A stretch of 64,000 nt of DNA, from assembly GCF_050920415.1 (NCBI RefSeq), contig NZ_CP169309.1; one strand, given 5' to 3'. The translations under genes were made by a program, and so were the position numbers. Shown one piece after another: positions 1 to 47,741 of the stretch. Under the pieces are notes generated by a model. The model made no database searches and was not told where the DNA came from. It was given only the letters and a program-made list of their open reading frames with translations. The stretch comes from Escherichia coli (GTDB lineage Bacteria > Pseudomonadota > Gammaproteobacteria > Enterobacterales > Enterobacteriaceae). The first letter of the stretch is position 1, and the number at the start of each line of letters is the position of its first letter.

Positions 1-342
1 ACTTAGGACTAACGACGTTTCAACACAGGTTCGGGTTTACTCATCTCACTGTATCTCACATAGGATCAGATCTCGTCTGATCGTTCCCCCTGCGCTCACT
101 ACCATGGCTCTTTACCACAGCAGCCGGGGTTGTTTGGGACCGACTTCCGACAGCAGATCCCGGTGGGCCTGCCACCATCTCTTCACAAGCTTATGCTTAT
201 TACATGCAAAACGTCCCGTTTTGCATCTTTGTGCCTACGGCACACGATGATCTTTCCCTGTACCACCTCCTCAGGAAGTGGTTTAAGGTTAATAACAAAA
301 ATACCAATCATTTTAATAAAATATGACGAGTATTTATTTTCA

Positions 343-615
343 TTATATTTTAAAGCATCCTAGCCCCTGCGATGCTCGCCATCGTTTTAACTCATCAACA
401 ATCCCTTGGGGACTATCTTCTCTATCTTCAGATGGATAGAATATCAAATCACTACCATCTGGGTGCTGAGTGATTCTAATAAAATGACTTACAAGATCAT
501 CAATAAACTTCGACAATTTATCGCCATGCAATTCCTCAGGTGGTTCAAAAAAATTATTTAGAAGTTCGATAAATTCATCTTCCGTATAATCTTCTAGATT
601 ATTTTTAAACTCCAT
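343..615 (-). CDS. Colicin-DNase-type immunity protein (Im7/Im9-like), 90 aa; candidate cognate immunity for the VgrG-fused DNase
   Basis: Translation MEFKNNLEDYTEDEFIELL...HPDGSDLIFYP...DSPQGIVDELKRWRA shares, from memory, the DYTE-EF, HPSGSDLIYYP and DSPSGIV..WRA motifs of Im9/Im7. AGGAGG Shine-Dalgarno 6 nt before the ATG; start lies 14 nt after the vgrG stop; AT-rich codon usage. Confidence 0.85.
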   Translation of the reverse strand: MEFKNNLEDYTEDEFIELLNNFFEPPEELHGDKLSKFIDDLVSHFIRITQHPDGSDLIFYPSEDREDSPQGIVDELKRWRASQGLGCFKI

Positions 616-629
616 TACTACCTCCTTTT

Positions 630-3600
630 TTATTTATGCAATCGTATGTGGTTTTTAGGTGTGTTTACTCTAAGATTATCAATATCATAGACTTCTCCCC
701 CATATTGGATTTCGTCAATATGATGAATTTCAAATGTACCTCGCCCCCCAACTCTTTGTCTTGATATAGTATAAGGTGCGCGTCCACGCTTTATCAACGT
801 TTGGTTAGCTTTATTAAATTGGCTCAATAGTTCTGGACATTCACCTACAGCAGTCCAGAAAGCTGCCCTGAATTCATCAAAATTGTTAAATGACTTACTC
901 CGAAGTTTATTTGCGACCTGTTGTGGAATTGGCACTCCTAAGCTTTTCCCCGCCTGCGACAGCCATCTTCCTGTACCTGCTAACACCTCCCCCTTACCTG
1001 TTACTGTTCCCGCTTCATCCCTTGCAGTTTTCAGATACACATATATTGGTGTTAATTCCGCACCGTCAGGAAAGACAAGTATCCAGTCATTAAAATTTCG
1101 CTCCTCCGGCATTGGAGAAGGCGGCGTGGTGATATCTGTTTTTTCATCGGGTATCGGATTAACATAAATATCAGGTAGATCAACTGGTTCGACAGGAGTT
1201 CCGGTGTGTATGGGCTGCTCTGAACCTTCTGGCTTTGCAGGCGTCCAAAATATTTTTGGTCCCGAATCAGACACAGGTGAAAATTCATAACGGGAAAATT
1301 CCTTATTCCACTCCATCAATGCTACCCGAACACCTTCAAGTTCCGAACCTGCGGGTGTGTGGTATCCGTATGTTCTCAATTCACCAGCAGTATTCCGCTG
1401 AAAGAGAAAGCGCGCCCGCGTAGCTGCCGTCTCTCCAGATTGCGCTTTACGACGTAGCTCATTTTCGAGCCACTGTTCATCCCGTCCAGGAACTTTATCA
1501 CTACCTTCACCGGCAGGTATTGGATATAGTGCTGATACTAGAACACCAAGGGCTGGCACCGTTTTTGATACACTTAAAAAACCTTCTCCACCCCATGCCC
1601 CTAATGTTCCCCATACGCGAGTTAAAACTCCCGCAGACTGTTCCGCCGCTAGTGGAACCGCAACACCCGCTGACGCAACTGTCATTTCCCCCGTCAGTGA
1701 GTTCGCTCCTGAAGTTTTTTTTGCTGACTGCGCAAGTTGCTCCACTTCATCGTCATGATAGTGTGTACCATAGCCGCAACAGTCATCCTCCACTGGCTGG
1801 GCAAATAGAGCCATATCACCAAAATGTTTCGATGGCTCCATGGTCGTACCAGCATCAGTGCAGCCTTTCTCCTTCAGACAAGATTTTGCGTATACAGGAA
1901 TTACCAGTTCATCTGAATCGTCCTTGTCTTCTTCTCCACCTTCTGATTCATCCTCATCACTAGGCTCTCCGTCATTCCCGCCGCCAGCATTCCCTCTGTC
2001 ATACTGCTCGTCAGCCAGAGCGTCCATAACTGCCGGTTGTAGTGTATTTATCGGCGTCCCCGGACTGCCCCCGCCATTCAGATTTATTTTCGGTCCGACA
2101 ATATCCACACCACCAGAATGAACGACCACAAACGAGCCCCCCACCTTCAGGCTTATCCGGCTGCTGCTCTCCAGCACGATATCCCCGTCCACCTTGATCC
2201 CCAGCGCGCCACTCACCTTCTCCGCCAGGTCGCCCTTCACCTCCAGACTGTGCGTTCCCTCCACCAGACTGATATGGTTCCCCGTCGTCTTATGCTCCTG
2301 CTTCCCTTCCACCGTCACTTTACGGTCGTTTCTGACATACAGGCCGTCATCGTGACTCACGCTCACCGTCCGGTCATTCGTCACCTTCAGCGTCTGGTCA
2401 TTACGTACCGTTATGCGCCGGTCGTTCGCCACCGTGATACTCTGGTCGTGACCCCCTTCTTTTCTGGTGCCGACCTCAACCGTCTGCCCCTTCACCACCC
2501 TTATCTTCTGGTCGTTACCGATGGTCTCCGTATGGTCATGCTTCACGTCCGTCCGCCGGTCGTTAAGCACCTCCGTGTCCATGTTCTTCTGCGCGTGGAT
2601 ATACACCTGCTCACTGTCCGTCGCATCCTCGAAACGCAGTTCATTAAAGCCGCTTCCTTTATAGGTCTTCGAGCGGATGGTCATCTGCGTCCGCGTGCCC
2701 GGTAAATCCCCCGGTGAACGGTTGTCCTCATGGTATGTCCGCCCCGTCACAATGGGCTGGTCCGGGTCGCCGTTCAGAAAGTCCACTATCACTTCCTGAC
2801 CCACACGCGGTATCGCCAGATTGCCGAACCCCGGTCCCGCCCATGCCTGCGACACCCGTATCCAGCATGAACTCTCCTCCGTCATCCCGTGATAACGGTC
2901 CCAGTGAAACTTCACCCGTACCCGGCCATGTTCGTCGCAGAATATCTCCTCGCCCTTCGGCCCGGTCACAATGGCACTCTGCGGGCCGTCCACCTTCGGC
3001 TTCGGCAGCGGCGCGTGACGCCACGTCCTGTCTGCCGGTATCACCTCAAACTGATTGCTCAGTGTCGTCCCTTCACCGTGACTCCCGTGCAGCGCCTGCG
3101 GCTGTTCTCCCCGCAGTGTGCTTCCCACAACCTGCCATTCCCGGTTCAGCGTCCCTGACGGATGGCCCGTCAGCCGGAACCGCGTTCCCGGCCACAGTCG
3201 CGCCGTGTTACACACCCCGCTCGCCGTCTCCGCCCCGTTCCGCCACCCTTCCGTCTGGTAACGCGCAAAATCCTGGCCATGCTGCTCATCCTTGAAACGC
3301 CCCGGATAATCAAATATCTCGTACTGCGTTCCCTGCCCGTTCAGGCTCTCCCCGTCATGGCTGTAGTACCCCGGCCACCCCGGCGTTTTGAACGTATAAT
3401 CCTGCGTCTCCACCGACGCCACGCTTATCTGCGCACGGTAACGGAAGTCGCTGATGTACTCTGTCGTGCCTCCGGTCGTGGTATTCGGGTTAAACGCCAG
3501 CGCCCCCATTCCCGTCAGCCCCGCCACGTCATCACACACCGCCAGCTTCTGTTCCGGCCCGTCCTGACTGCAGCGTTCATAAAAGAAGATACCTTCCTCC

Positions 3601-4085
3601 GCCCACAGCCGGGTCAGGAATGTCAGGTCGCTCTCCCCGTACTGCACGCAGAACTCCCGCGCCGGGTGCGCCTCATAGAACAGCGGCATCCACGCCGTCA
3701 CCCCGTTCTCTCTCAGAAGCTGTGCTGATATCGTCCCTATGTCCTGCTGCTGGAAGATACGGAAGTTCTGCCGTAACCCTGCCCGCCACAGCGGCGGGCT
3801 GATGCTCAGGGAATAACGCATCTGCCAGTCGTTGTTCTCACCGAGCTGCACCTCCGTCACGATACCGCTGACGTAACGCTGCGGGATATCACCCTGCCAG
3901 ACCGTCAGCACCGCGCTCTTCTCCAGAAAATCCTCCGCCGTCAGGTCAGACAGCCCGCTGGCGATATCCACATCCAGGATGAACGGCGTGCAGTGGTGCT
4001 GGTACAGACGGAAGCTCACCACCGCCGTCGCCATCTCCACGATACCGGCCACCGACAGCGTGAAACGTAATCCTTCTGAGGACAT
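630..4085 (-). CDS. vgrG: Evolved VgrG (T6SS spike, gp27/gp5-like core) with about 430 aa C-terminal extension ending in a colicin E9-like HNH DNase domain
   Basis: Six-frame ORF 630..4118 (1162 aa). N-terminus MSSEGLRFTL... is VgrG-like, so the likely start is the ATG at 4085 with a GGGG motif upstream (ORF-track alternative 4118). The middle has gp5-type repeats (VANDRRITVRNDQTLKVTNDRTVSV...). The C-terminus ...FDEFRAAFW...RQRVGGRGTFEIHHIDEIQYGGEVYDIDNLRVNTPKNHIRLHK matches the colicin E9/E7 DNase H-N-H motif by eye. Confidence 0.88.
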   Translation of the reverse strand: MSSEGLRFTLSVAGIVEMATAVVSFRLYQHHCTPFILDVDIASGLSDLTAEDFLEKSAVLTVWQGDIPQRYVSGIVTEVQLGENNDWQMRYSLSISPPLWRAGLRQNFRIFQQQDIGTISAQLLRENGVTAWMPLFYEAHPAREFCVQYGESDLTFLTRLWAEEGIFFYERCSQDGPEQKLAVCDDVAGLTGMGALAFNPNTTTGGTTEYISDFRYRAQISVASVETQDYTFKTPGWPGYYSHDGESLNGQGTQYEIFDYPGRFKDEQHGQDFARYQTEGWRNGAETASGVCNTARLWPGTRFRLTGHPSGTLNREWQVVGSTLRGEQPQALHGSHGEGTTLSNQFEVIPADRTWRHAPLPKPKVDGPQSAIVTGPKGEEIFCDEHGRVRVKFHWDRYHGMTEESSCWIRVSQAWAGPGFGNLAIPRVGQEVIVDFLNGDPDQPIVTGRTYHEDNRSPGDLPGTRTQMTIRSKTYKGSGFNELRFEDATDSEQVYIHAQKNMDTEVLNDRRTDVKHDHTETIGNDQKIRVVKGQTVEVGTRKEGGHDQSITVANDRRITVRNDQTLKVTNDRTVSVSHDDGLYVRNDRKVTVEGKQEHKTTGNHISLVEGTHSLEVKGDLAEKVSGALGIKVDGDIVLESSSRISLKVGGSFVVVHSGGVDIVGPKINLNGGGSPGTPINTLQPAVMDALADEQYDRGNAGGGNDGEPSDEDESEGGEEDKDDSDELVIPVYAKSCLKEKGCTDAGTTMEPSKHFGDMALFAQPVEDDCCGYGTHYHDDEVEQLAQSAKKTSGANSLTGEMTVASAGVAVPLAAEQSAGVLTRVWGTLGAWGGEGFLSVSKTVPALGVLVSALYPIPAGEGSDKVPGRDEQWLENELRRKAQSGETAATRARFLFQRNTAGELRTYGYHTPAGSELEGVRVALMEWNKEFSRYEFSPVSDSGPKIFWTPAKPEGSEQPIHTGTPVEPVDLPDIYVNPIPDEKTDITTPPSPMPEERNFNDWILVFPDGAELTPIYVYLKTARDEAGTVTGKGEVLAGTGRWLSQAGKSLGVPIPQQVANKLRSKSFNNFDEFRAAFWTAVGECPELLSQFNKANQTLIKRGRAPYTISRQRVGGRGTFEIHHIDEIQYGGEVYDIDNLRVNTPKNHIRLHK
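633..1004 (-). other. HNH (beta-beta-alpha-metal) colicin-type DNase toxin domain, the last ~124 aa of VgrG
   Basis: HH...N...H arrangement (EIHH, NTPKNH, RLHK) and a preceding KSLGVPIPQQVANKLRSKSFNNFDEFRAAFW segment, collinear with the colicin E9 DNase domain as remembered. About 38% GC by eye, versus about 60% for the VgrG core. Confidence 0.75.
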
Positions 4086-4260
4086 ATAAACCCCATAGCT
4101 ACCGCACTCATGGTGCAAACCATACGGGCTTATAAGAAAGGCTTAAGTGAGATATCTGCCAGATAGCAACTATTAGGAAAATATTTATATATATTTCATG
4201 AATATATATTTCGGTTGGTATAACGGTGTCTAAATATTCCTCTGAACATCTTCCTGATAC

Positions 4261-35283: not shown

Positions 35284-35360
35284 GGCTACGTAGCTCAGTT
35301 GGTTAGAGCACATCACTCATAATGATGGGGTCACAGGTTCGAATCCCGTCGTAGCCACCA
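35284..35360 (+). tRNA. metT: tRNA-Met (elongator, CAU)
   Basis: ggctacgtagctcag...ctcataat... cloverleaf ending CCA; first gene of the seven-tRNA operon. Confidence 0.85.
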
Positions 35361-35368
35361 TCTTTTTT

Positions 35369-35453
35369 GCGGGAGTGGCGAAATTGGTAGACGCACCAGA
35401 TTTAGGTTCTGGCGCCGCAAGGTGTGCGAGTTCAAGTCTCGCCTCCCGCACCA
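35369..35453 (+). tRNA. leuW: tRNA-Leu (UAG), long variable arm
   Basis: gcgggagtggcgaaattggtag...anticodon loop tttaggt...CCA; 85 nt. Confidence 0.85.
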
Positions 35454-35476
35454 TTCACCAGAAAGCGTTGTACGGA

Positions 35477-35551
35477 TGGGGTATCGCCAAGCGGTAAGGC
35501 ACCGGTTTTTGATACCGGCATTCCCTGGTTCGAATCCAGGTACCCCAGCCA
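35477..35551 (+). tRNA. glnU: tRNA-Gln (UUG)
   Basis: tggggtatcgccaagcggtaagg...anticodon loop ttttgat...CCA. Confidence 0.85.
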
Positions 35552-35585
35552 TCTTCTTCGAGTAAGCGGTTCACCGCCCGGTTAT

Positions 35586-35660
35586 TGGGGTATCGCCAAG
35601 CGGTAAGGCACCGGTTTTTGATACCGGCATTCCCTGGTTCGAATCCAGGTACCCCAGCCA
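35586..35660 (+). tRNA. glnW: tRNA-Gln (UUG), second copy
   Basis: Identical to the previous tRNA-Gln (UUG). Confidence 0.85.
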
Positions 35661-35675
35661 TCGAAGAAACAATCT

Positions 35676-35752
35676 GGCTACGTAGCTCAGTTGGTTAGAG
35701 CACATCACTCATAATGATGGGGTCACAGGTTCGAATCCCGTCGTAGCCACCA
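35676..35752 (+). tRNA. metU: tRNA-Met (elongator, CAU), second copy
   Basis: Identical to the first tRNA-Met. Confidence 0.85.
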
Positions 35753-35800
35753 AATTCTGAATGTGTCGAATGCGTTCGGCAAATTCACAAACCAATTTGT

Positions 35801-35875
35801 TGGGGTATCGCCAAGCGGTAAGGCACCGGATTCTGATTCCGGCATTCCGAGGTTCGAATCCTCGTACCCCAGCCA
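35801..35875 (+). tRNA. glnV: tRNA-Gln (CUG)
   Basis: tggggtatcgccaagcggtaagg...anticodon loop ttctgat...CCA. Confidence 0.85.
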
Positions 35876-35912
35876 ATTTATTCAAGACGCTTACCTTGTA
35901 AGTGCACCCAGT

Positions 35913-35987
35913 TGGGGTATCGCCAAGCGGTAAGGCACCGGATTCTGATTCCGGCATTCCGAGGTTCGAATCCTCGTACCCCAGCCA
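35913..35987 (+). tRNA. glnX: tRNA-Gln (CUG), second copy
   Basis: Identical to the previous tRNA-Gln (CUG). Confidence 0.85.
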
Positions 35988-41535: not shown

Positions 41536-43074
41536 ATGGCTTTTGCCTCATTAATTGAACGCCAGCGCATTCGCCTGCTGCTGGCGTTATTATTCGGTGC
41601 CTGCGGAACGCTGGCCTTCTCTCCTTACGATGTCTGGCCTGCGGCGATTATTTCGCTGATGGGGCTTCAGGCGCTGACCTTTAACCGCCGTCCACTCCAG
41701 TCTGCCACTATTGGCTTTTGCTGGGGATTTGGCCTGTTTGGCAGCGGTATTAACTGGGTCTATGTCAGCATCGCGACCTTTGGCGGAATGCCTGGCCCGG
41801 TTAACATCTTCTTGGTGGTGCTGCTGGCGGCGTATTTGTCGCTGTATACCGGACTGTTTGCTGGCGTACTGTCGCGTCTGTGGCCGAAAACCACCTGGCT
41901 GCGCGTGGCGATTGCCGCCCCTGCTCTCTGGCAAGTGACCGAGTTTCTGCGCGGTTGGGTGCTGACTGGCTTCCCGTGGTTGCAGTTCGGCTATAGCCAG
42001 ATTGACGGTCCGTTAAAAGGACTGGCACCGATAATGGGCGTGGAAGCCATTAACTTCCTGCTGATGATGGTAAGCGGCCTGCTGGCACTGGCGTTGGTCA
42101 AACGCAACTGGCGTCCGCTGGTGGTGGCCGTCGTGCTGTTCGCCCTTCCCTTCCCGCTGCGTTACATCCAGTGGTTCACCCCGCAACCGGAGAAAACCAT
42201 TCAGGTTTCGATGGTTCAGGGCGACATTCCGCAATCGCTGAAGTGGGATGAAGGCCAGCTTCTCAATACGCTGAAGATTTACTACAACGCAACGGCACCG
42301 CTGATGGGCAAATCATCGCTGATTATCTGGCCGGAGTCGGCGATAACCGACCTGGAAATTAATCAGCAGCCGTTCCTCAAAGCACTGGACGGTGAGTTGC
42401 GTGATAAAGGTAGCTCGCTGGTCACCGGGATTGTCGACGCGCGTCTCAATAAGCAGAATCGCTACGATACCTACAACACCATCATCACGCTGGGTAAAGG
42501 TGCACCGTATAGCTACGAATCAGCCGATCGCTATAACAAAAACCATCTGGTACCGTTTGGCGAGTTTGTCCCGCTGGAGTCGATTCTGCGTCCGTTAGCA
42601 CCGTTCTTTGATCTGCCGATGTCGTCATTCAGCCGTGGACCATATATCCAACCACCGCTGTCGGTAAATGGTATTGAGCTTACTGCGGCTATTTGCTACG
42701 AGATCATTCTCGGCGAGCAAGTGCGCGATAACTTCCGCCCGGATACCGACTATCTGCTGACTATCTCCAACGATGCGTGGTTTGGTAAGTCTATTGGCCC
42801 ATGGCAGCACTTTCAGATGGCGCGAATGCGTGCGCTGGAGCTGGCGCGCCCGCTGCTGCGTAGCACCAACAACGGCATTACGGCGGTGATTGGCCCGCAG
42901 GGTGAGATTCAGGCGATGATCCCGCAATTCACCCGCGAAGTGTTAACCACTAATGTGACGCCGACCACCGGACTCACACCGTACGCACGTACCGGCAACT
43001 GGCCGCTGTGGGTGCTGACGGCACTGTTTGGTTTTGCCGCTGTGTTGATGAGTCTGCGTCAACGACGTAAATAA
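41536..43074 (+). CDS. lnt: Apolipoprotein N-acyltransferase
   Basis: 512 aa; polytopic N-terminus plus nitrilase-like domain. Confidence 0.95.
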
Positions 43075-43470
43075 TCCCTTCTTATCGTGCCGGAATACAT
43101 CCCGTATTTCGGCACGCTCGCCGGATGTGGTATCAGTGCGTTATCCGGATGACAAAATTCCCCTATCCAACTTTGGCACATCTATTGCTTTGTTATACAA
43201 GGCAAAGCTTGAACCCGCGTCAGTACAACCCGGTTGCACCATAGCAATCCACCGGTAGCACCAAAAGAGTGCATTTTAAGAGTTTTGCTTCGGAATGGTG
43301 CGGCGCATCTCGCAAAAACAAACAATAAAACATCAATATCTTTACATTTAGCCAAACTAAATGTTACCTAACAAACACAACACTGCACAATAAAGTTGCA
43401 GATGATAACAACACAAACACTCACAACGGGTATCCATGCGTTCTTAACGCAGAAGATAAAGGAGTTGGAT

Positions 43471-44379
43471 ATGCAATTACGTAAACCTGCCACAGCAATC
43501 CTGGCCCTGGCGCTTTCCGCAGGCCTGGCACAGGCAGATGACGCCGCCCCGGCAGCGGGCAGTACGCTGGACAAAATCGCCAAAAACGGTGTGATTGTCG
43601 TCGGTCACCGTGAATCTTCAGTACCTTTCTCTTATTACGACAATCAGCAAAAAGTGGTGGGTTACTCGCAGGATTACTCCAACGCCATTGTTGAAGCAGT
43701 GAAAAAGAAACTCAACAAACCGGACTTGCAGGTGAAATTGATTCCGATCACCTCACAAAACCGTATTCCGCTGCTGCAAAACGGCACTTTCGATTTTGAA
43801 TGTGGTTCTACCACCAACAATGTCGAACGCCAAAAACAGGCGGCTTTCTCTGACACTATTTTCGTGGTCGGTACGCGCCTGCTGACCAAAAAAGGCGGCG
43901 ATATCAAAGATTTTGCCGACCTGAAAGACAAAGCCGTAGTCGTTACTTCCGGCACTACCTCTGAAGTTTTGCTCAACAAACTGAATGAAGAGCAAAAAAT
44001 GAATATGCGCATCATCAGCGCCAAAGATCACGGTGACTCTTTCCGCACCCTGGAAAGCGGTCGTGCCGTTGCCTTTATGATGGATGACGCTCTGTTAGCC
44101 GGTGAGCGAGCGAAAGCGAAGAAACCAGACAACTGGGAAATCGTCGGCAAGCCGCAGTCTCAGGAAGCCTACGGTTGCATGTTGCGTAAAGACGATCCGC
44201 AGTTCAAAAAGCTGATGGATGACACTATCGCTCAGGTGCAGACCTCCGGTGAAGCGGAAAAATGGTTTGATAAGTGGTTCAAAAATCCAATTCCGCCGAA
44301 AAACCTGAACATGAATTTCGAACTGTCGGACGAAATGAAAGCACTGTTCAAAGAACCGAATGACAAGGCACTGAACTAA
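43471..44379 (+). CDS. gltI: Glutamate/aspartate periplasmic binding protein
   Basis: MQLRKPATAILALALSAGLAQA signal peptide; AAGGAG Shine-Dalgarno; the ORF-track 5' extension is rejected. Confidence 0.95.
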   Translation: MQLRKPATAILALALSAGLAQADDAAPAAGSTLDKIAKNGVIVVGHRESSVPFSYYDNQQKVVGYSQDYSNAIVEAVKKKLNKPDLQVKLIPITSQNRIPLLQNGTFDFECGSTTNNVERQKQAAFSDTIFVVGTRLLTKKGGDIKDFADLKDKAVVVTSGTTSEVLLNKLNEEQKMNMRIISAKDHGDSFRTLESGRAVAFMMDDALLAGERAKAKKPDNWEIVGKPQSQEAYGCMLRKDDPQFKKLMDDTIAQVQTSGEAEKWFDKWFKNPIPPKNLNMNFELSDEMKALFKEPNDKALN

Positions 44380-44384
44380 TTACA

Positions 44385-44536
44385 AGAACCAGGGGCGGAA
44401 ATTCCAGCCCTCTCGATTGTTACGTAGCACGGACAGACTATACGCCTGATGGTCGTTCCCCATCGGGCCTGAAAACCGCAATACGCTGGGTAACAATCTT
44501 CGAGGGTAGCAGTTAACGCTGCTACCCTCTTTTTTC
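44385..44536 (+). ncRNA. sroC: Probable SroC sRNA (gltI 3'UTR / gltI-gltJ spacer-derived), ending in an intrinsic terminator
   Basis: Position and strong terminator (gagggtagcag/ctgctaccctc stem plus T7) match where SroC is remembered to lie; the 5' end is not determinable by eye. Confidence 0.45.
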
Positions 44537-44548
44537 TGGAGTAGATTT

Positions 44549-45289
44549 ATGTCTATAGACTGGAACTGGGGTATTTTTTTACAACAAGCCCCGTTCGGCA
44601 ACACCACCTATCTTGGTTGGATCTGGAGTGGTTTTCAGGTGACGATTGCTTTGTCGATCTGCGCCTGGATTATCGCTTTCCTCGTCGGTTCATTTTTCGG
44701 CATTTTACGTACCGTTCCAAACCGTTTTCTCTCCGGTCTGGGTACGTTGTATGTCGAACTGTTCCGCAACGTGCCGTTGATTGTGCAATTCTTTACCTGG
44801 TATCTGGTTATCCCTGAACTGTTGCCGGAAAAAATCGGCATGTGGTTTAAGGCAGAACTAGACCCCAATATTCAGTTTTTCCTCTCCTCCATGCTCTGTC
44901 TGGGACTGTTTACTGCAGCTCGTGTTTGCGAACAAGTACGCGCCGCGATTCAGTCGTTGCCGCGTGGGCAAAAGAATGCCGCGCTGGCAATGGGTCTGAC
45001 GCTACCGCAGGCTTACCGCTACGTACTGTTGCCTAACGCTTATCGCGTTATCGTCCCGCCAATGACCTCTGAGATGATGAACCTGGTGAAAAACTCCGCC
45101 ATCGCCTCGACCATCGGTCTGGTGGATATGGCGGCGCAGGCCGGTAAATTGCTCGACTACTCGGCCCACGCCTGGGAGTCATTTACCGCCATTACGCTGG
45201 CGTATGTGTTGATTAACGCTTTTATCATGCTGGTGATGACGCTGGTTGAACGTAAAGTTCGCCTGCCCGGCAACATGGGGGGCAAATAA
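44549..45289 (+). CDS. gltJ: Glutamate/aspartate ABC permease
   Basis: 246 aa polytopic. Confidence 0.95.
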
Positions 45290-45962
45290 TGTACGAGTTT
45301 GACTGGAGTTCCATTGTTCCTTCCCTGCCATATCTGCTCGACGGGCTGGTGATCACCCTGAAAATCACCATCACGGCGGTGGTCATTGGTATTTTGTGGG
45401 GTACGATGCTGGCAGTGATGCGCTTGTCCAGCTTTGCGCCGATTGCCTGGTTTGCCAAAGCCTACGTTAACGTGTTCCGTTCGATCCCGTTAGTCATGGT
45501 TTTGCTATGGTTTTACCTGATTGTGCCGGGATTTCTGCAAAACGTGCTGGGATTATCGCCAAAAAATGATATCCGTTTAATTTCGGCGATGGTGGCGTTT
45601 TCGATGTTTGAAGCGGCCTACTATTCAGAGATTATCCGTGCCGGTATTCAAAGTATTTCCCGTGGGCAGTCGAGCGCCGCGCTGGCGTTGGGGATGACTC
45701 ACTGGCAGTCGATGAAACTGATTATTCTGCCGCAGGCGTTCCGCGCGATGGTGCCGCTGCTGCTCACTCAGGGCATCGTACTTTTCCAGGATACCTCGCT
45801 GGTGTATGTGTTATCTCTGGCCGATTTCTTCCGTACCGCCTCAACCATTGGTGAGCGTGATGGTACACAGGTCGAAATGATTCTGTTTGCCGGGTTTGTT
45901 TATTTCGTTATTAGCCTTAGCGCATCGTTGTTGGTCAGCTACTTGAAAAGAAGGACAGCATA

Positions 45963-45963
<1 letters not shown>
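45289..45963 (+). CDS. gltK: Glutamate/aspartate ABC permease
   Basis: 224 aa polytopic; start overlaps the gltJ stop. Confidence 0.95.
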
Positions 45964-46688
<725 letters not shown>

Positions 46689-46694
46689 TCACTC

Positions 46695-46730
46695 TGGCGC
46701 GCATACCCAAGTGCGCGCCATCTCACGCTT
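46695..46730 (+). terminator. Putative terminator after gltL
   Basis: tggcgcgca/tgcgcgcca stem; weak T tract. Confidence 0.5.
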
Positions 46731-46805
46731 TATCGTTTCGCTCCTCGTATCTGTTACATCCTGGCGGTACCCTTGTCGCAAAGAAGCACACAACAAGGAG
46801 CAACA

Positions 46806-47741
46806 ATGGCACTGCCAATTCTGTTAGATTGCGACCCAGGTCATGACGACGCTATCGCAATAGTTCTTGCCCTCGCCTCACCAGAGCTTGATGTCAAAGC
46901 AATTACGTCTTCCTCCGGAAACCAGACTCCAGAAAAAACCTTACGCAATGTTCTGCGTATGCTGACCTTGCTCAATCGCACCGATATTCCGGTAGCAGGC
47001 GGCGCGGTAAAACCGTTAATGCGTGAGTTGATTATCGCGGACAATGTGCACGGCGAAAGCGGTCTCGACGGCCCGGCATTACCGGAACCGACGTTCGCAC
47101 CGCAAAACTGTACGGCGGTGGAGCTGATGGCGAAAACGCTGCGTGAAAGTGCGGAACCTGTCACGATTGTTTCTACCGGGCCGCAAACTAACGTTGCCTT
47201 GCTGCTCAATAGCCATCCGGAACTGCATAGCAAAATCGCCCGTATCGTGATTATGGGCGGCGCAATGGGGCTTGGTAACTGGACGCCAGCCGCCGAGTTT
47301 AATATTTATGTTGACCCGGAAGCGGCAGAAATTGTTTTCCAGTCAGGGATCCCGGTGGTGATGGCCGGTCTGGATGTTACTCATAAAGCGCAAATCCACG
47401 TTGAAGACACCGAGTGTTTCCGCGCGATTGGCAACCCTGTTTCAACCATTGTTGCCGAACTGCTGGATTTCTTCCTCGAATATCATAAAGACGAAAAATG
47501 GGGCTTTGTTGGCGCACCGCTGCATGACCCATGCACCATCGCCTGGCTGTTAAAACCGGAGTTGTTTACCACTGTTGAGCGCTGGGTTGGCGTGGAAACA
47601 CAGGGGAAATATACTCAGGGCATGACGGTTGTTGATTATTATTATCTGACCGGCAATAAACCGAATGCTACTGTAATGGTCGATGTTGATCGTCAGGGCT
47701 TTGTTGATTTACTGGCTGATCGTCTGAAATTTTACGCTTAA
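46806..47741 (+). CDS. rihA: Pyrimidine-specific ribonucleoside hydrolase
   Basis: [20 protein letters not shown] (DxDxxxDD motif); AAGGAG Shine-Dalgarno. Confidence 0.9.

What the first reader, a model, noticed from the sequence alone, without database searches (positions are those of the whole stretch)
44380..44548. Structured gltI-gltJ spacer consistent with the SroC sRNA
Seen in sequence: the 169-nt spacer ends in a strong intrinsic terminator (11-bp GC-rich stem plus T7) immediately before gltJ. Established knowledge: SroC is processed from this part of the gltIJKL mRNA and acts as a sponge for GcvB. The 5' boundary cannot be fixed by eye.
Basis: partly seen in the sequence, partly recalled or inferred. 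Interest (0 to 1): 0.25.

Follow-up and report, generated by a model that had tools for sequence, protein, structure and literature searches.

The report
SroC small RNA, the GcvB sponge
The structured stretch between gltI and gltJ is the well-known E. coli small RNA SroC, cut from the gltI messenger, which destroys the regulator RNA GcvB; it is identical to the K-12 reference copy and therefore ordinary.

Summary
The finding is correct and already known. The gltI-gltJ spacer is 169 nt (44380-44548). It ends in a strong intrinsic terminator at 44502-44529: 11 Watson-Crick pairs plus one G-U, followed by T6, not T7. Rfam's sroC model (RF00369) matches 44375-44537 (+) over its full length at 174.8 bits, against a gathering score of 45. 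The K-12 reference annotates sroC (b4763, 163 nt) at the homologous position, and the window is 100% identical to K-12 across 200 aligned bases. This fixes the boundaries: the RNA starts 5 nt inside gltI and ends in the U-tract, 11 nt before the gltJ ATG.

Both experimentally defined GcvB contact sites are present, 14 nt apart: GGACAGAC at 44431-44438 and the loop UCGUUCC at 44453-44459. In 57 homologues from about 17 enterobacterial genera the loop site is nearly invariant, while the surrounding stem changes in a compensatory way. The C/A-rich GcvB target in the gltI 5' UTR is also in the window, so both arms of the published feedback circuit are present.

Rival readings fail: own promoter, minus-strand ORF, repeat element. 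Novelty: already known. Interest is low.

The parts
44375..44537 (+). SroC small RNA (163 nt), overlapping the last 5 nt of gltI and ending in the terminator U-tract
   Evidence: Rfam RF00369 at 174.8 bits, full model. K-12 ncRNA sroC b4763, 163 nt, lies at the homologous position. 100% identity to K-12.
44375..44391 (+). Unpaired A/U-rich 5' leader of SroC; the 5' end is made by RNase E cleavage inside the end of gltI
   Evidence: Unpaired in both the MFE and the centroid structure. The 5' monophosphate and RNase E dependence are taken from PMC4474525 and were not tested here.
44392..44411 (+). Stem-loop 1 (SroC 18-37)
   Evidence: MFE structure. 87.5% of cells paired across 57 distinct sequences, and 2 pairs changed on both sides (helix 1).
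44415..44498 (+). Long stem-loop 2 domain (SroC 41-124), including the internal bulge and the apical hairpin
   Evidence: MFE structure and the Rfam consensus structure. Helix 2 is 82% paired with 6 pairs changed on both sides.
44431..44438 (+). GcvB contact site in the internal bulge, GGACAGAC (SroC 57-64). It is complementary to GcvB 156-163 and equals the site carrying the published C63G mutation (Salmonella numbering = K-12 C60, window 44434).
   Evidence: 8 contiguous Watson-Crick pairs, dG -12.6 kcal/mol, or -15.3 extended. Published compensatory mutations are in PMC4474525. The two free positions of my search pattern (SroC 61-62) are invariant in 58/58 sequences.
44444..44468 (+). Apical hairpin of SL2 (SroC 70-94): a 9-bp stem presenting a 7-nt loop
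   Evidence: Recovered independently by RNAalifold. 97.3% of cells paired, and 6 of 9 pairs changed on both sides (helix 5).
44453..44459 (+). GcvB contact site in the SL2 loop, UCGUUCC (SroC 79-85). It is complementary to GcvB 13-19 and equals the site carrying the published C87G mutation (K-12 C84, window 44458).
   Evidence: 7 contiguous pairs, dG -9.0 kcal/mol, or -12.2 extended. Mean probability of being unpaired is 0.85. It lies outside the search pattern yet is invariant in 56-58 of 58 sequences.
44502..44537 (+). Rho-independent terminator (stem 44502-44529, then UUUUUUCU). It forms the 3' end of SroC and of the monocistronic gltI mRNA, and is leaky so that gltJKL is still transcribed.
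   Evidence: Terminator scan: 12 pairs, 7 G-C, loop 4. Hairpin energy -22.7 kcal/mol. 96% of cells paired across genera (helix 6). Leakiness is from PMC4474525 section 14.
43471..44379 (+). gltI, the parental gene (periplasmic Glu/Asp-binding protein) whose mRNA decay releases SroC
   Evidence: ORF list. Annotated as gltI in thousands of E. coli genomes and in K-12.
43393..43430 (+). C/A-rich element in the gltI 5' UTR (core AACAACACAAACACUCACAAC), the target of the GU-rich R1 region of GcvB. It makes gltI both a target of GcvB and the source of its antagonist.
   Evidence: Predicted duplex with GcvB 61-95, dG -38.2 kcal/mol. The gltI 5' UTR 'CA' target site is described in PMC4474525.
44549..46688 (+). 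gltJ, gltK and gltL (permeases and ATPase), expressed only by read-through of the SroC terminator
   Evidence: ORFs 44549-45289, 45289-45963 and 45963-46688. K-12 annotation.

Best explanation
Window 44375-44537 (+) encodes SroC, an Hfq-associated small RNA derived from the 3' UTR of gltI.

Mechanism, with the basis for each step:
1. The single gltI promoter transcribes gltIJKL. A leaky intrinsic terminator at 44502-44537 ends many transcripts after gltI. The terminator is shown here; its leakiness comes from the literature.
2. RNase E decay, proceeding in a 5'-end-dependent way from within gltI, stops at the tightly folded region. This leaves a very stable 163-nt RNA with a 5' monophosphate. 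This step is from the literature and was not testable here.
3. Two short exposed segments of SroC pair with two distant regions of GcvB. These are GGACAGAC in the internal bulge and UCGUUCC in the SL2 loop, 14 nt apart. The sequence complementarity is shown here; its function was shown by compensatory mutations in Salmonella and by E. coli half-life experiments in the literature.
4. The pairing triggers RNase E degradation of GcvB, while SroC survives and acts repeatedly.
5. Loss of GcvB de-represses the many amino-acid transport and metabolism mRNAs that GcvB silences. These include gltI itself, through the C/A-rich site at about 43393-43430, so the locus forms a positive feedback loop.

The literature also reports further SroC partners: the MgrR sRNA and the fliE/flhBAE mRNAs.
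For: - Rfam sroC matches the full model at 174.8 bits, against a gathering score of 45.
- K-12 annotates sroC b4763 at the same position relative to gltI and gltJ, and the window is 100% identical to it over 200 nt.
- The region is present in 5421 of 5426 complete E. coli genomes, with a median of one copy.
- Folding z-score is -6.5.
- A strong terminator is present.
- Both published GcvB sites are present with the published 14-nt spacing. The Salmonella residues reported as probed or mutated (G61, G65, G84, C63, C87) all map onto the same bases at a constant offset of 3.
- Across 57 homologues, 88% of cells are paired against 37-54% in slid controls, and 162 cells changed on both sides against 23-54. 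The SL2 stem covaries while its loop is invariant.
- No sigma-70-like promoter was found on the + strand anywhere in 43000-47000, which fits a processed rather than primary transcript.
- GcvB is present in 5425 of 5426 E. coli genomes.
- The GcvB target element in the gltI 5' UTR is present.
- Experimental mechanism is described in PMC4474525, PMC10250213 and PMC9438474.
Against: - Nothing contradicts this explanation.
- Caveat 1: 7-8 bp of complementarity to GcvB is not statistically unusual on its own. 75% of dinucleotide shuffles of SroC have at least one helix of 7 bp or more with GcvB, and 22% have one of 8 bp or more plus another of 7 bp or more. Two other helices of equal length also exist, but they lie inside stable stems. 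The sites are meaningful because of their position, conservation and the published mutational proof, not because of the count.
- Caveat 2: conservation of the bulge site is partly forced, because it lay inside my retrieval pattern.
- Caveat 3: expression, processing and Hfq binding in this particular strain are inferred from sequence identity, not observed.
- Caveat 4: gcvB is not in the window.
Confidence: 0.97

Rival explanations
1. The spacer is only a cis-acting intra-operon terminator/attenuator that sets the GltI : GltJKL ratio, and the RNA fragment it leaves has no function in trans.
For: The terminator is real and strong. PMC4474525 itself states that the leaky terminator produces the monocistronic gltI mRNA and so gives a higher GltI stoichiometry. 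This role coexists with the sponge role.
Against: A terminator needs only about 36 nt, yet 125 nt upstream of it are conserved with compensatory changes. The 7-nt SL2 loop is invariant across about 17 genera while its stem varies, which points to selection on an exposed sequence. Published compensatory mutations show a trans effect on GcvB.
Confidence: 0.02
2. SroC is an independent sRNA gene with its own promoter inside the 3' end of gltI, as for DapZ or MicL.
For: Some 3' UTR sRNAs are made this way (PMC4474525 section 14). A simple consensus scan cannot exclude weak or non-sigma-70 promoters.
Against: There is no promoter-like site on the + strand in 43000-47000. The literature reports a 5' monophosphate, no transcription start site at the 5' end, and a requirement for RNase E and a leader of at least 20 nt for maturation.
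Confidence: 0.01
3. The region encodes a small protein on the minus strand (ORF 44380-44607, 75 aa) or is a repeated or mobile element.
For: The ORF appears in the mechanical six-frame list.
Against: The distance from the invariant core to the gltJ ATG varies among homologues (109, 110, 111, 112, 114, 115, 116 and 122 nt). These differences are not multiples of three, so no frame is preserved. Only 4 of 57 homologues have any stop-free minus frame across the segment. The ORF would also have to start inside gltJ. The sequence occurs once per genome, with a median of 1 place, so it is not a repeat family.
Confidence: 0.005

Closest known systems
SroC (Rfam RF00369; E. coli K-12 b4763; Salmonella SroC of Miyakoshi, Chao & Vogel 2015, PMC4474525)
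   Same: Same locus (gltI-gltJ junction), strand, length (163 nt) and structure. Both GcvB contact sites and the terminator are present. The sequence is identical to the K-12 copy.
   Different: Nothing within the RNA differs. Relative to Salmonella and most other genera, the Escherichia copy (including this window) has a 9-nt insertion that lengthens the terminator stem, giving -22.7 against -13.7 kcal/mol. It also has a U6 tract rather than U8. Upstream, this strain lacks the IS5D that K-12 carries 103 nt before the gltI ATG.
Other RNase E-processed 3' UTR-derived Hfq sRNAs (CpxQ, SdhX, NarS, MalH, OppZ)
   Same: Released from the 3' end of an mRNA by RNase E, share the host terminator, carry a 5' monophosphate, and are stable (PMC9438474 and PMC10250213).
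   Different: SroC comes from an internal cistron junction of an operon rather than the operon's end. Its main target is another sRNA, not an mRNA.
Other bacterial sRNA sponges (chbBC spacer vs ChiX; 3'ETS-leuZ vs RyhB/RybB; AgvB vs GcvB)
   Same: An RNA by-product base-pairs with an Hfq-dependent sRNA and lowers its activity.
   Different: SroC uses two short sites that contact distant parts of GcvB, and it triggers RNase E decay of GcvB while remaining intact itself. ChiX inactivation instead involves its terminator region and PNPase (PMC4474525). The comparisons with 3'ETS-leuZ and AgvB rest on my own knowledge and were not tested here.

Membership tests
SroC (RF00369) | Sequence-plus-structure match to the curated covariance model above its gathering score | tested here: met
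   174.8 bits against 45, E = 7.4e-37, model 1-163 of 163, not truncated.
SroC (RF00369) | Located at the gltI-gltJ junction on the coding strand, with the 5' end inside the end of gltI | tested here: met
   gltI 43471-44379 and gltJ 44549-45289 flank the hit 44375-44537. The arrangement is the same in K-12. tblastn found gltI upstream and gltJ downstream of the core in all 7 homologous loci checked; the other 50 loci were not checked.
SroC (RF00369) | Identity to the experimentally detected E. coli sroC gene | tested here: met
   100% identity to K-12 b4763 and its flanks over 200 aligned bases.
SroC (RF00369) | 3' end formed by a Rho-independent terminator in the intergenic region | tested here: met
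   Stem 44502-44529 with 12 pairs, then UUUUUUCU. Hairpin energy -22.7 kcal/mol. Conserved across genera (helix 6).
SroC (RF00369) | Two GcvB-complementary sites (BS1, BS2) 14 nt apart, one in the internal bulge and one in the SL2 loop | tested here: met
   SroC 57-64 pairs with GcvB 156-163 (8 bp). SroC 79-85 pairs with GcvB 13-19 (7 bp). The gap is 14 nt, and the loop site is 85% unpaired. By length alone this is not beyond chance (same call). It matches the sites in PMC4474525 at a constant numbering offset of 3.
SroC (RF00369) | Conserved, covarying secondary structure (SL1, long SL2, terminator) | tested here: met
   88.4% of cells paired against 37-54% in slid controls. 16 pairs and 162 cells changed on both sides. 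0 of 500 shuffles reached the observed covariation score. SL2 and the terminator were found independently by RNAalifold.
SroC (RF00369) | Processed transcript: no own promoter, RNase E-generated 5' monophosphate | tested here: inconclusive
   No sigma-70-like promoter on the + strand in 43000-47000, but a consensus scan cannot prove absence. RNase E processing is known only from PMC4474525.
SroC (RF00369) | Stable Hfq-bound RNA of about 160 nt that shortens GcvB half-life | not testable with these tools
   Reported for Salmonella and for the E. coli sequence identical to this one (PMC4474525; PMC10250213 Table 1). No expression data exist for this strain.
SroC (RF00369) | Partner GcvB encoded in the same genome | not testable with these tools
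   gcvB is not in the 64-kb window. It is present in 5425 of 5426 complete E. coli genomes, at 99% identity or more in 5389.

The most novel reading that the evidence does not exclude
The nucleotides of SroC that are invariant across genera but lie outside the two GcvB contacts may serve a function that has not been described. Examples are CCU/CGAU at SroC 35-43, CUAUA after the bulge site, and AAUCUUCGAGGGUAG leading into the terminator. One possibility is a binding site for a factor or RNA that tunes termination versus read-through at the gltI-gltJ junction. That idea was raised but left open in PMC4474525 section 14. In addition, the Escherichia/Kluyvera-specific lengthening of the terminator stem (-22.7 against -13.7 kcal/mol, U6 against U8) may shift the SroC : gltJKL output ratio relative to Salmonella.
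Probability: 0.15. Interest if true: 0.3.

Novelty: already known. Interest (0 to 1): 0.05.

Why it matters
The result matters only as correct annotation. Most automated E. coli annotations list nothing between gltI and gltJ: the records show only gltI and gltJ under the match. Yet this 163-nt segment encodes a regulator that controls the stability of GcvB, the master sRNA of amino-acid transport and metabolism. It also links expression of one ABC transporter to many others. No new biology follows from this window.

Tried and rejected
- Full-length RNAduplex of SroC against GcvB gave a meaningless end-to-end hybrid. I replaced it with an enumeration of contiguous helices plus shuffled controls.
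- One script failed on a wrong file path.
- I expected the GcvB complementarity to be statistically striking, but it is not: 22-75% of shuffles do as well. I rest the argument on position, conservation and published mutagenesis instead.
- About 40 of the 97 genome contigs matches to the 17-mer pattern were chance hits in unrelated phyla, with no similarity outside the pattern. I discarded them.
- RNAalifold on the MAFFT alignment did not recover SL1 or the long-range helix, because indels misalign those columns. The projected MFE structure was tested instead.
- Three readings were considered and rejected: a minus-strand 75-aa ORF, a repeat element, and an independent promoter.
- A weak sub-threshold Rfam hit (Pseudomonadales-1, 22.6 bits against a gathering score of 68) at 261-409 (-) was treated as chance.

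Full report
**Observation**

The gltI reading frame ends with TAA at 44377-44379 and gltJ starts with ATG at 44549.

The terminator scan finds a stem at 44502-44529 with 12 pairs, 7 of them G-C, and a 4-nt loop, followed by TTTTTTCT. That is 11 Watson-Crick pairs plus one G-U. The T-run is six consecutive T, not seven. The gltJ Shine-Dalgarno GGAG (44538-44541) and the ATG follow directly.

The 163-nt segment 44375-44537 folds to -66.3 kcal/mol, against -40.5 +/- 4.0 for 200 dinucleotide-preserving shuffles. The z-score is -6.5, and no shuffle folded as well.

**Identity**

A scan of the whole window against Rfam 15 gives sroC (RF00369) at 44375-44537 on the + strand. The score is 174.8 bits against a gathering score of 45, E = 7e-37, covering all 163 model positions.

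The K-12 MG1655 reference annotates the ncRNA sroC (b4763, 163 nt) at 686681-686843. It overlaps the last 5 nt of gltI and ends 11 nt before gltJ. An alignment of window 44360-44560 with the K-12 locus is 100% identical over all 200 shared columns.

The segment is found in 5421 of 5426 complete E. coli genomes, with a median of one copy and 99% identity or more in 5367. Most of those records annotate only gltI and gltJ there.

The RNA begins at 44375, inside gltI, and ends at 44537.

**Mechanism as published**

Miyakoshi, Chao and Vogel (PMC4474525) established the following:
- SroC is a stable fragment of about 160 nt with a 5' monophosphate. Its 5' end lies within the gltI coding sequence and is not a transcription start.
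- Its 3' end comes from a conserved, leaky Rho-independent terminator, which also yields the monocistronic gltI mRNA.
- RNase E and Hfq are needed for its maturation.
- SroC base-pairs with GcvB at two short sites (BS1, BS2) that are 14 nt apart in SroC but distant in GcvB.
- Single and double compensatory mutations (SroC C63G/C87G with GcvB G160C/G14C) prove that this pairing causes RNase E-dependent decay of GcvB, while SroC survives.
- Deleting sroC raises the GcvB half-life from 1.7 min to more than 15 min.
- The E. coli homologues are reported as equally functional.

An independent E. coli study found the GcvB half-life falling from more than 16 min to 3.8 min when SroC was produced, whatever its 5' phosphorylation state (PMC10250213). 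A review adds MgrR and the fliE/flhBAE mRNAs as further SroC partners (PMC9438474).

**Testing the mechanism on this sequence**

I fetched K-12 gcvB and listed all contiguous Watson-Crick helices between it and the window's SroC.
- GGACAGAC (SroC 57-64, window 44431-44438) pairs with GcvB 156-163: 8 bp, -12.6 kcal/mol.
- UCGUUCC (SroC 79-85, window 44453-44459) pairs with GcvB 13-19: 7 bp, -9.0 kcal/mol.
- The two sites are 14 nt apart, as published.
- The second site is exactly the 7-nt loop of the SL2 apical hairpin, with a mean probability of being unpaired of 0.85.

Every Salmonella residue named in the paper (G61, G65, G84, C63, C87) maps to the same base in this sequence at a constant offset of 3. 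The alignment shows no length difference between S. enterica subspecies and E. coli upstream of these sites. I therefore infer that the Salmonella 5' end is counted 3 nt further upstream. This leaves the 5' end at 44372-44375.

An honest caveat applies. Complementarity of this length is not unusual on its own. 75% of shuffled SroC sequences have at least one helix of 7 bp or more with GcvB, and 22% have one of 8 bp or more plus another of 7 bp or more. Two other helices of equal length exist in the real pair, both buried in stable stems. The sites count because of where they are, how they are conserved and what was mutated, not because of the match length.

**Comparative evidence**

A scan of one genome per species with the core pattern AGCACGGACNNACTATA returned 97 matches. 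Of these, 57 are true homologues (76-100% identity over about 278 nt) from Escherichia, Salmonella, Citrobacter, Enterobacter, Klebsiella, Raoultella, Kluyvera, Kosakonia, Lelliottia, Phytobacter, Siccibacter and others. About 40 are chance matches in unrelated phyla.

In the alignment the loop site and its flanks, GGUCGUUCCCC, lay outside the search pattern. They are nevertheless invariant in 56-58 of 58 sequences. The SL2 stem around the loop changes by compensatory substitutions, for example UGAUGG/CCAUCG, GAGUGG/CCACUC, AGGUGG/CCACCU and GGCUGG/CCAGCC.

RNAalifold independently recovers this hairpin and the terminator. When the window's MFE structure is projected onto the alignment:
- 88.4% of cells are paired, against 37-54% when partners are slid by 1-3 columns.
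- 162 cells changed on both sides, against 23-54 in the slid controls.
- No shuffle out of 500 reaches the observed covariation score.
- Helix 5 (the SL2 apex) is 97% paired, and 6 of its 9 pairs have double changes.

An invariant exposed loop on a freely covarying stem is the signature of a base-pairing seed. Conservation of the bulge site is less informative, because it lay inside my retrieval pattern. Even so, its two free positions were also invariant.

**The rest of the circuit**

The gltI 5' UTR in the window contains the C/A-rich element AACAACACAAACACUCACAAC, within 43393-43430. It forms a long predicted duplex with the GU-rich R1 region of GcvB (positions 61-95, -38.2 kcal/mol). This matches the 'CA' target site described in PMC4474525. 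Both arms of the published loop are therefore present: GcvB represses gltI, and gltI-derived SroC destroys GcvB. GcvB itself is not in the window but occurs in 5425 of 5426 E. coli genomes.

**Rivals**

- A purely cis-acting terminator does not explain 125 nt of conserved, covarying structure and an invariant loop upstream of it. The published point mutant also separates the two roles.
- An independent promoter is not supported. No sigma-70-like site was found on the + strand in 43000-47000, and the literature reports a processed 5' end.
- The 75-aa minus-strand ORF (44380-44607) is not conserved. Spacer lengths differ among genera by non-multiples of three, and only 4 of 57 homologues keep any open minus frame.
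- The sequence is single-copy, so it is not a repeat element.

**Verdict**

This is the known sRNA SroC in a copy identical to K-12. Novelty is nil.

The only open points concern the invariant nucleotides outside the GcvB contacts and the longer Escherichia-type terminator stem (-22.7 against -13.7 kcal/mol for the Salmonella type, with U6 instead of U8). Either might tune termination or read-through, an idea already raised in the literature.

Noticed in passing
window 59-176 (-), continuing off the window start: A group II intron fragment matches Rfam RF01999 (D1-D4-2) at 93.1 bits against a gathering score of 36. It lies just beyond a small ORF (343-615, -) and a 1162-aa ORF (630-4118, -). 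In an identical genome these are annotated as a bacteriocin immunity protein and an S-type pyocin domain protein next to TssI/VgrG. Only 4 of 5426 E. coli genomes cover at least 80% of window 1-2500, and only one (NZ_CP169399.1) includes the intron piece.
   Followed up: partly
window about 43366-43369, upstream of gltI: K-12 carries IS5D 103 nt upstream of the gltI ATG; this window does not. Homology to K-12 breaks at a CTAA. The gltI 5' UTR shows 1 mismatch in the 103 nt shared upstream of the ATG, 68 nt before it, plus a 3-nt difference next to the insertion point. This strain therefore has the uninterrupted lnt-gltI intergenic region.
   Followed up: partly
window 44502-44537 compared with L023, L076, L047 and other loci: Escherichia and Kluyvera copies of the sroC terminator carry an 8-11 nt insertion that lengthens the stem, giving a -22.7 kcal/mol hairpin here against -13.7 for the Salmonella/Citrobacter type. 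The window and K-12 have TC in place of TT at the foot of the stem, leaving U6 instead of U8. One E. coli (L017) has the long stem with U8.
   Followed up: partly
L027 (C. braakii), L089/L096 (Phytobacter), L041 (Intestinirhabdus): In these species about 70-130 extra nucleotides lie between the gltI stop codon and SroC stem-loop 1. The SroC 5' end therefore cannot lie inside gltI as it does in E. coli. The nature of the insertion was not examined.
   Followed up: no
L015, L050 (Siccibacter colletis, S. turicensis): The 3' third of SroC and its terminator are replaced by unrelated sequence. The loop site has U to C (CCGUUCC), which loses one pair with GcvB. This recalls the truncated, non-functional Yersinia variant described in PMC4474525.
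   Followed up: no
window 35284-35984 (+): A cluster of seven tRNA genes reaches the Rfam gathering score. It is consistent with the Met/Leu/Gln tRNA operon near this region of the E. coli chromosome; that identification is from my own knowledge, and the anticodons were not checked.
   Followed up: no
window 44475-44482 and 44520-44526: Two further stretches of SroC are perfectly complementary to GcvB: ACCGCAAU with GcvB 189-196 (8 bp), and UGCUACC with GcvB 114-120 (7 bp). Both lie inside stable stems of both RNAs and are matched by chance expectation, so they are probably not functional.
   Followed up: partly
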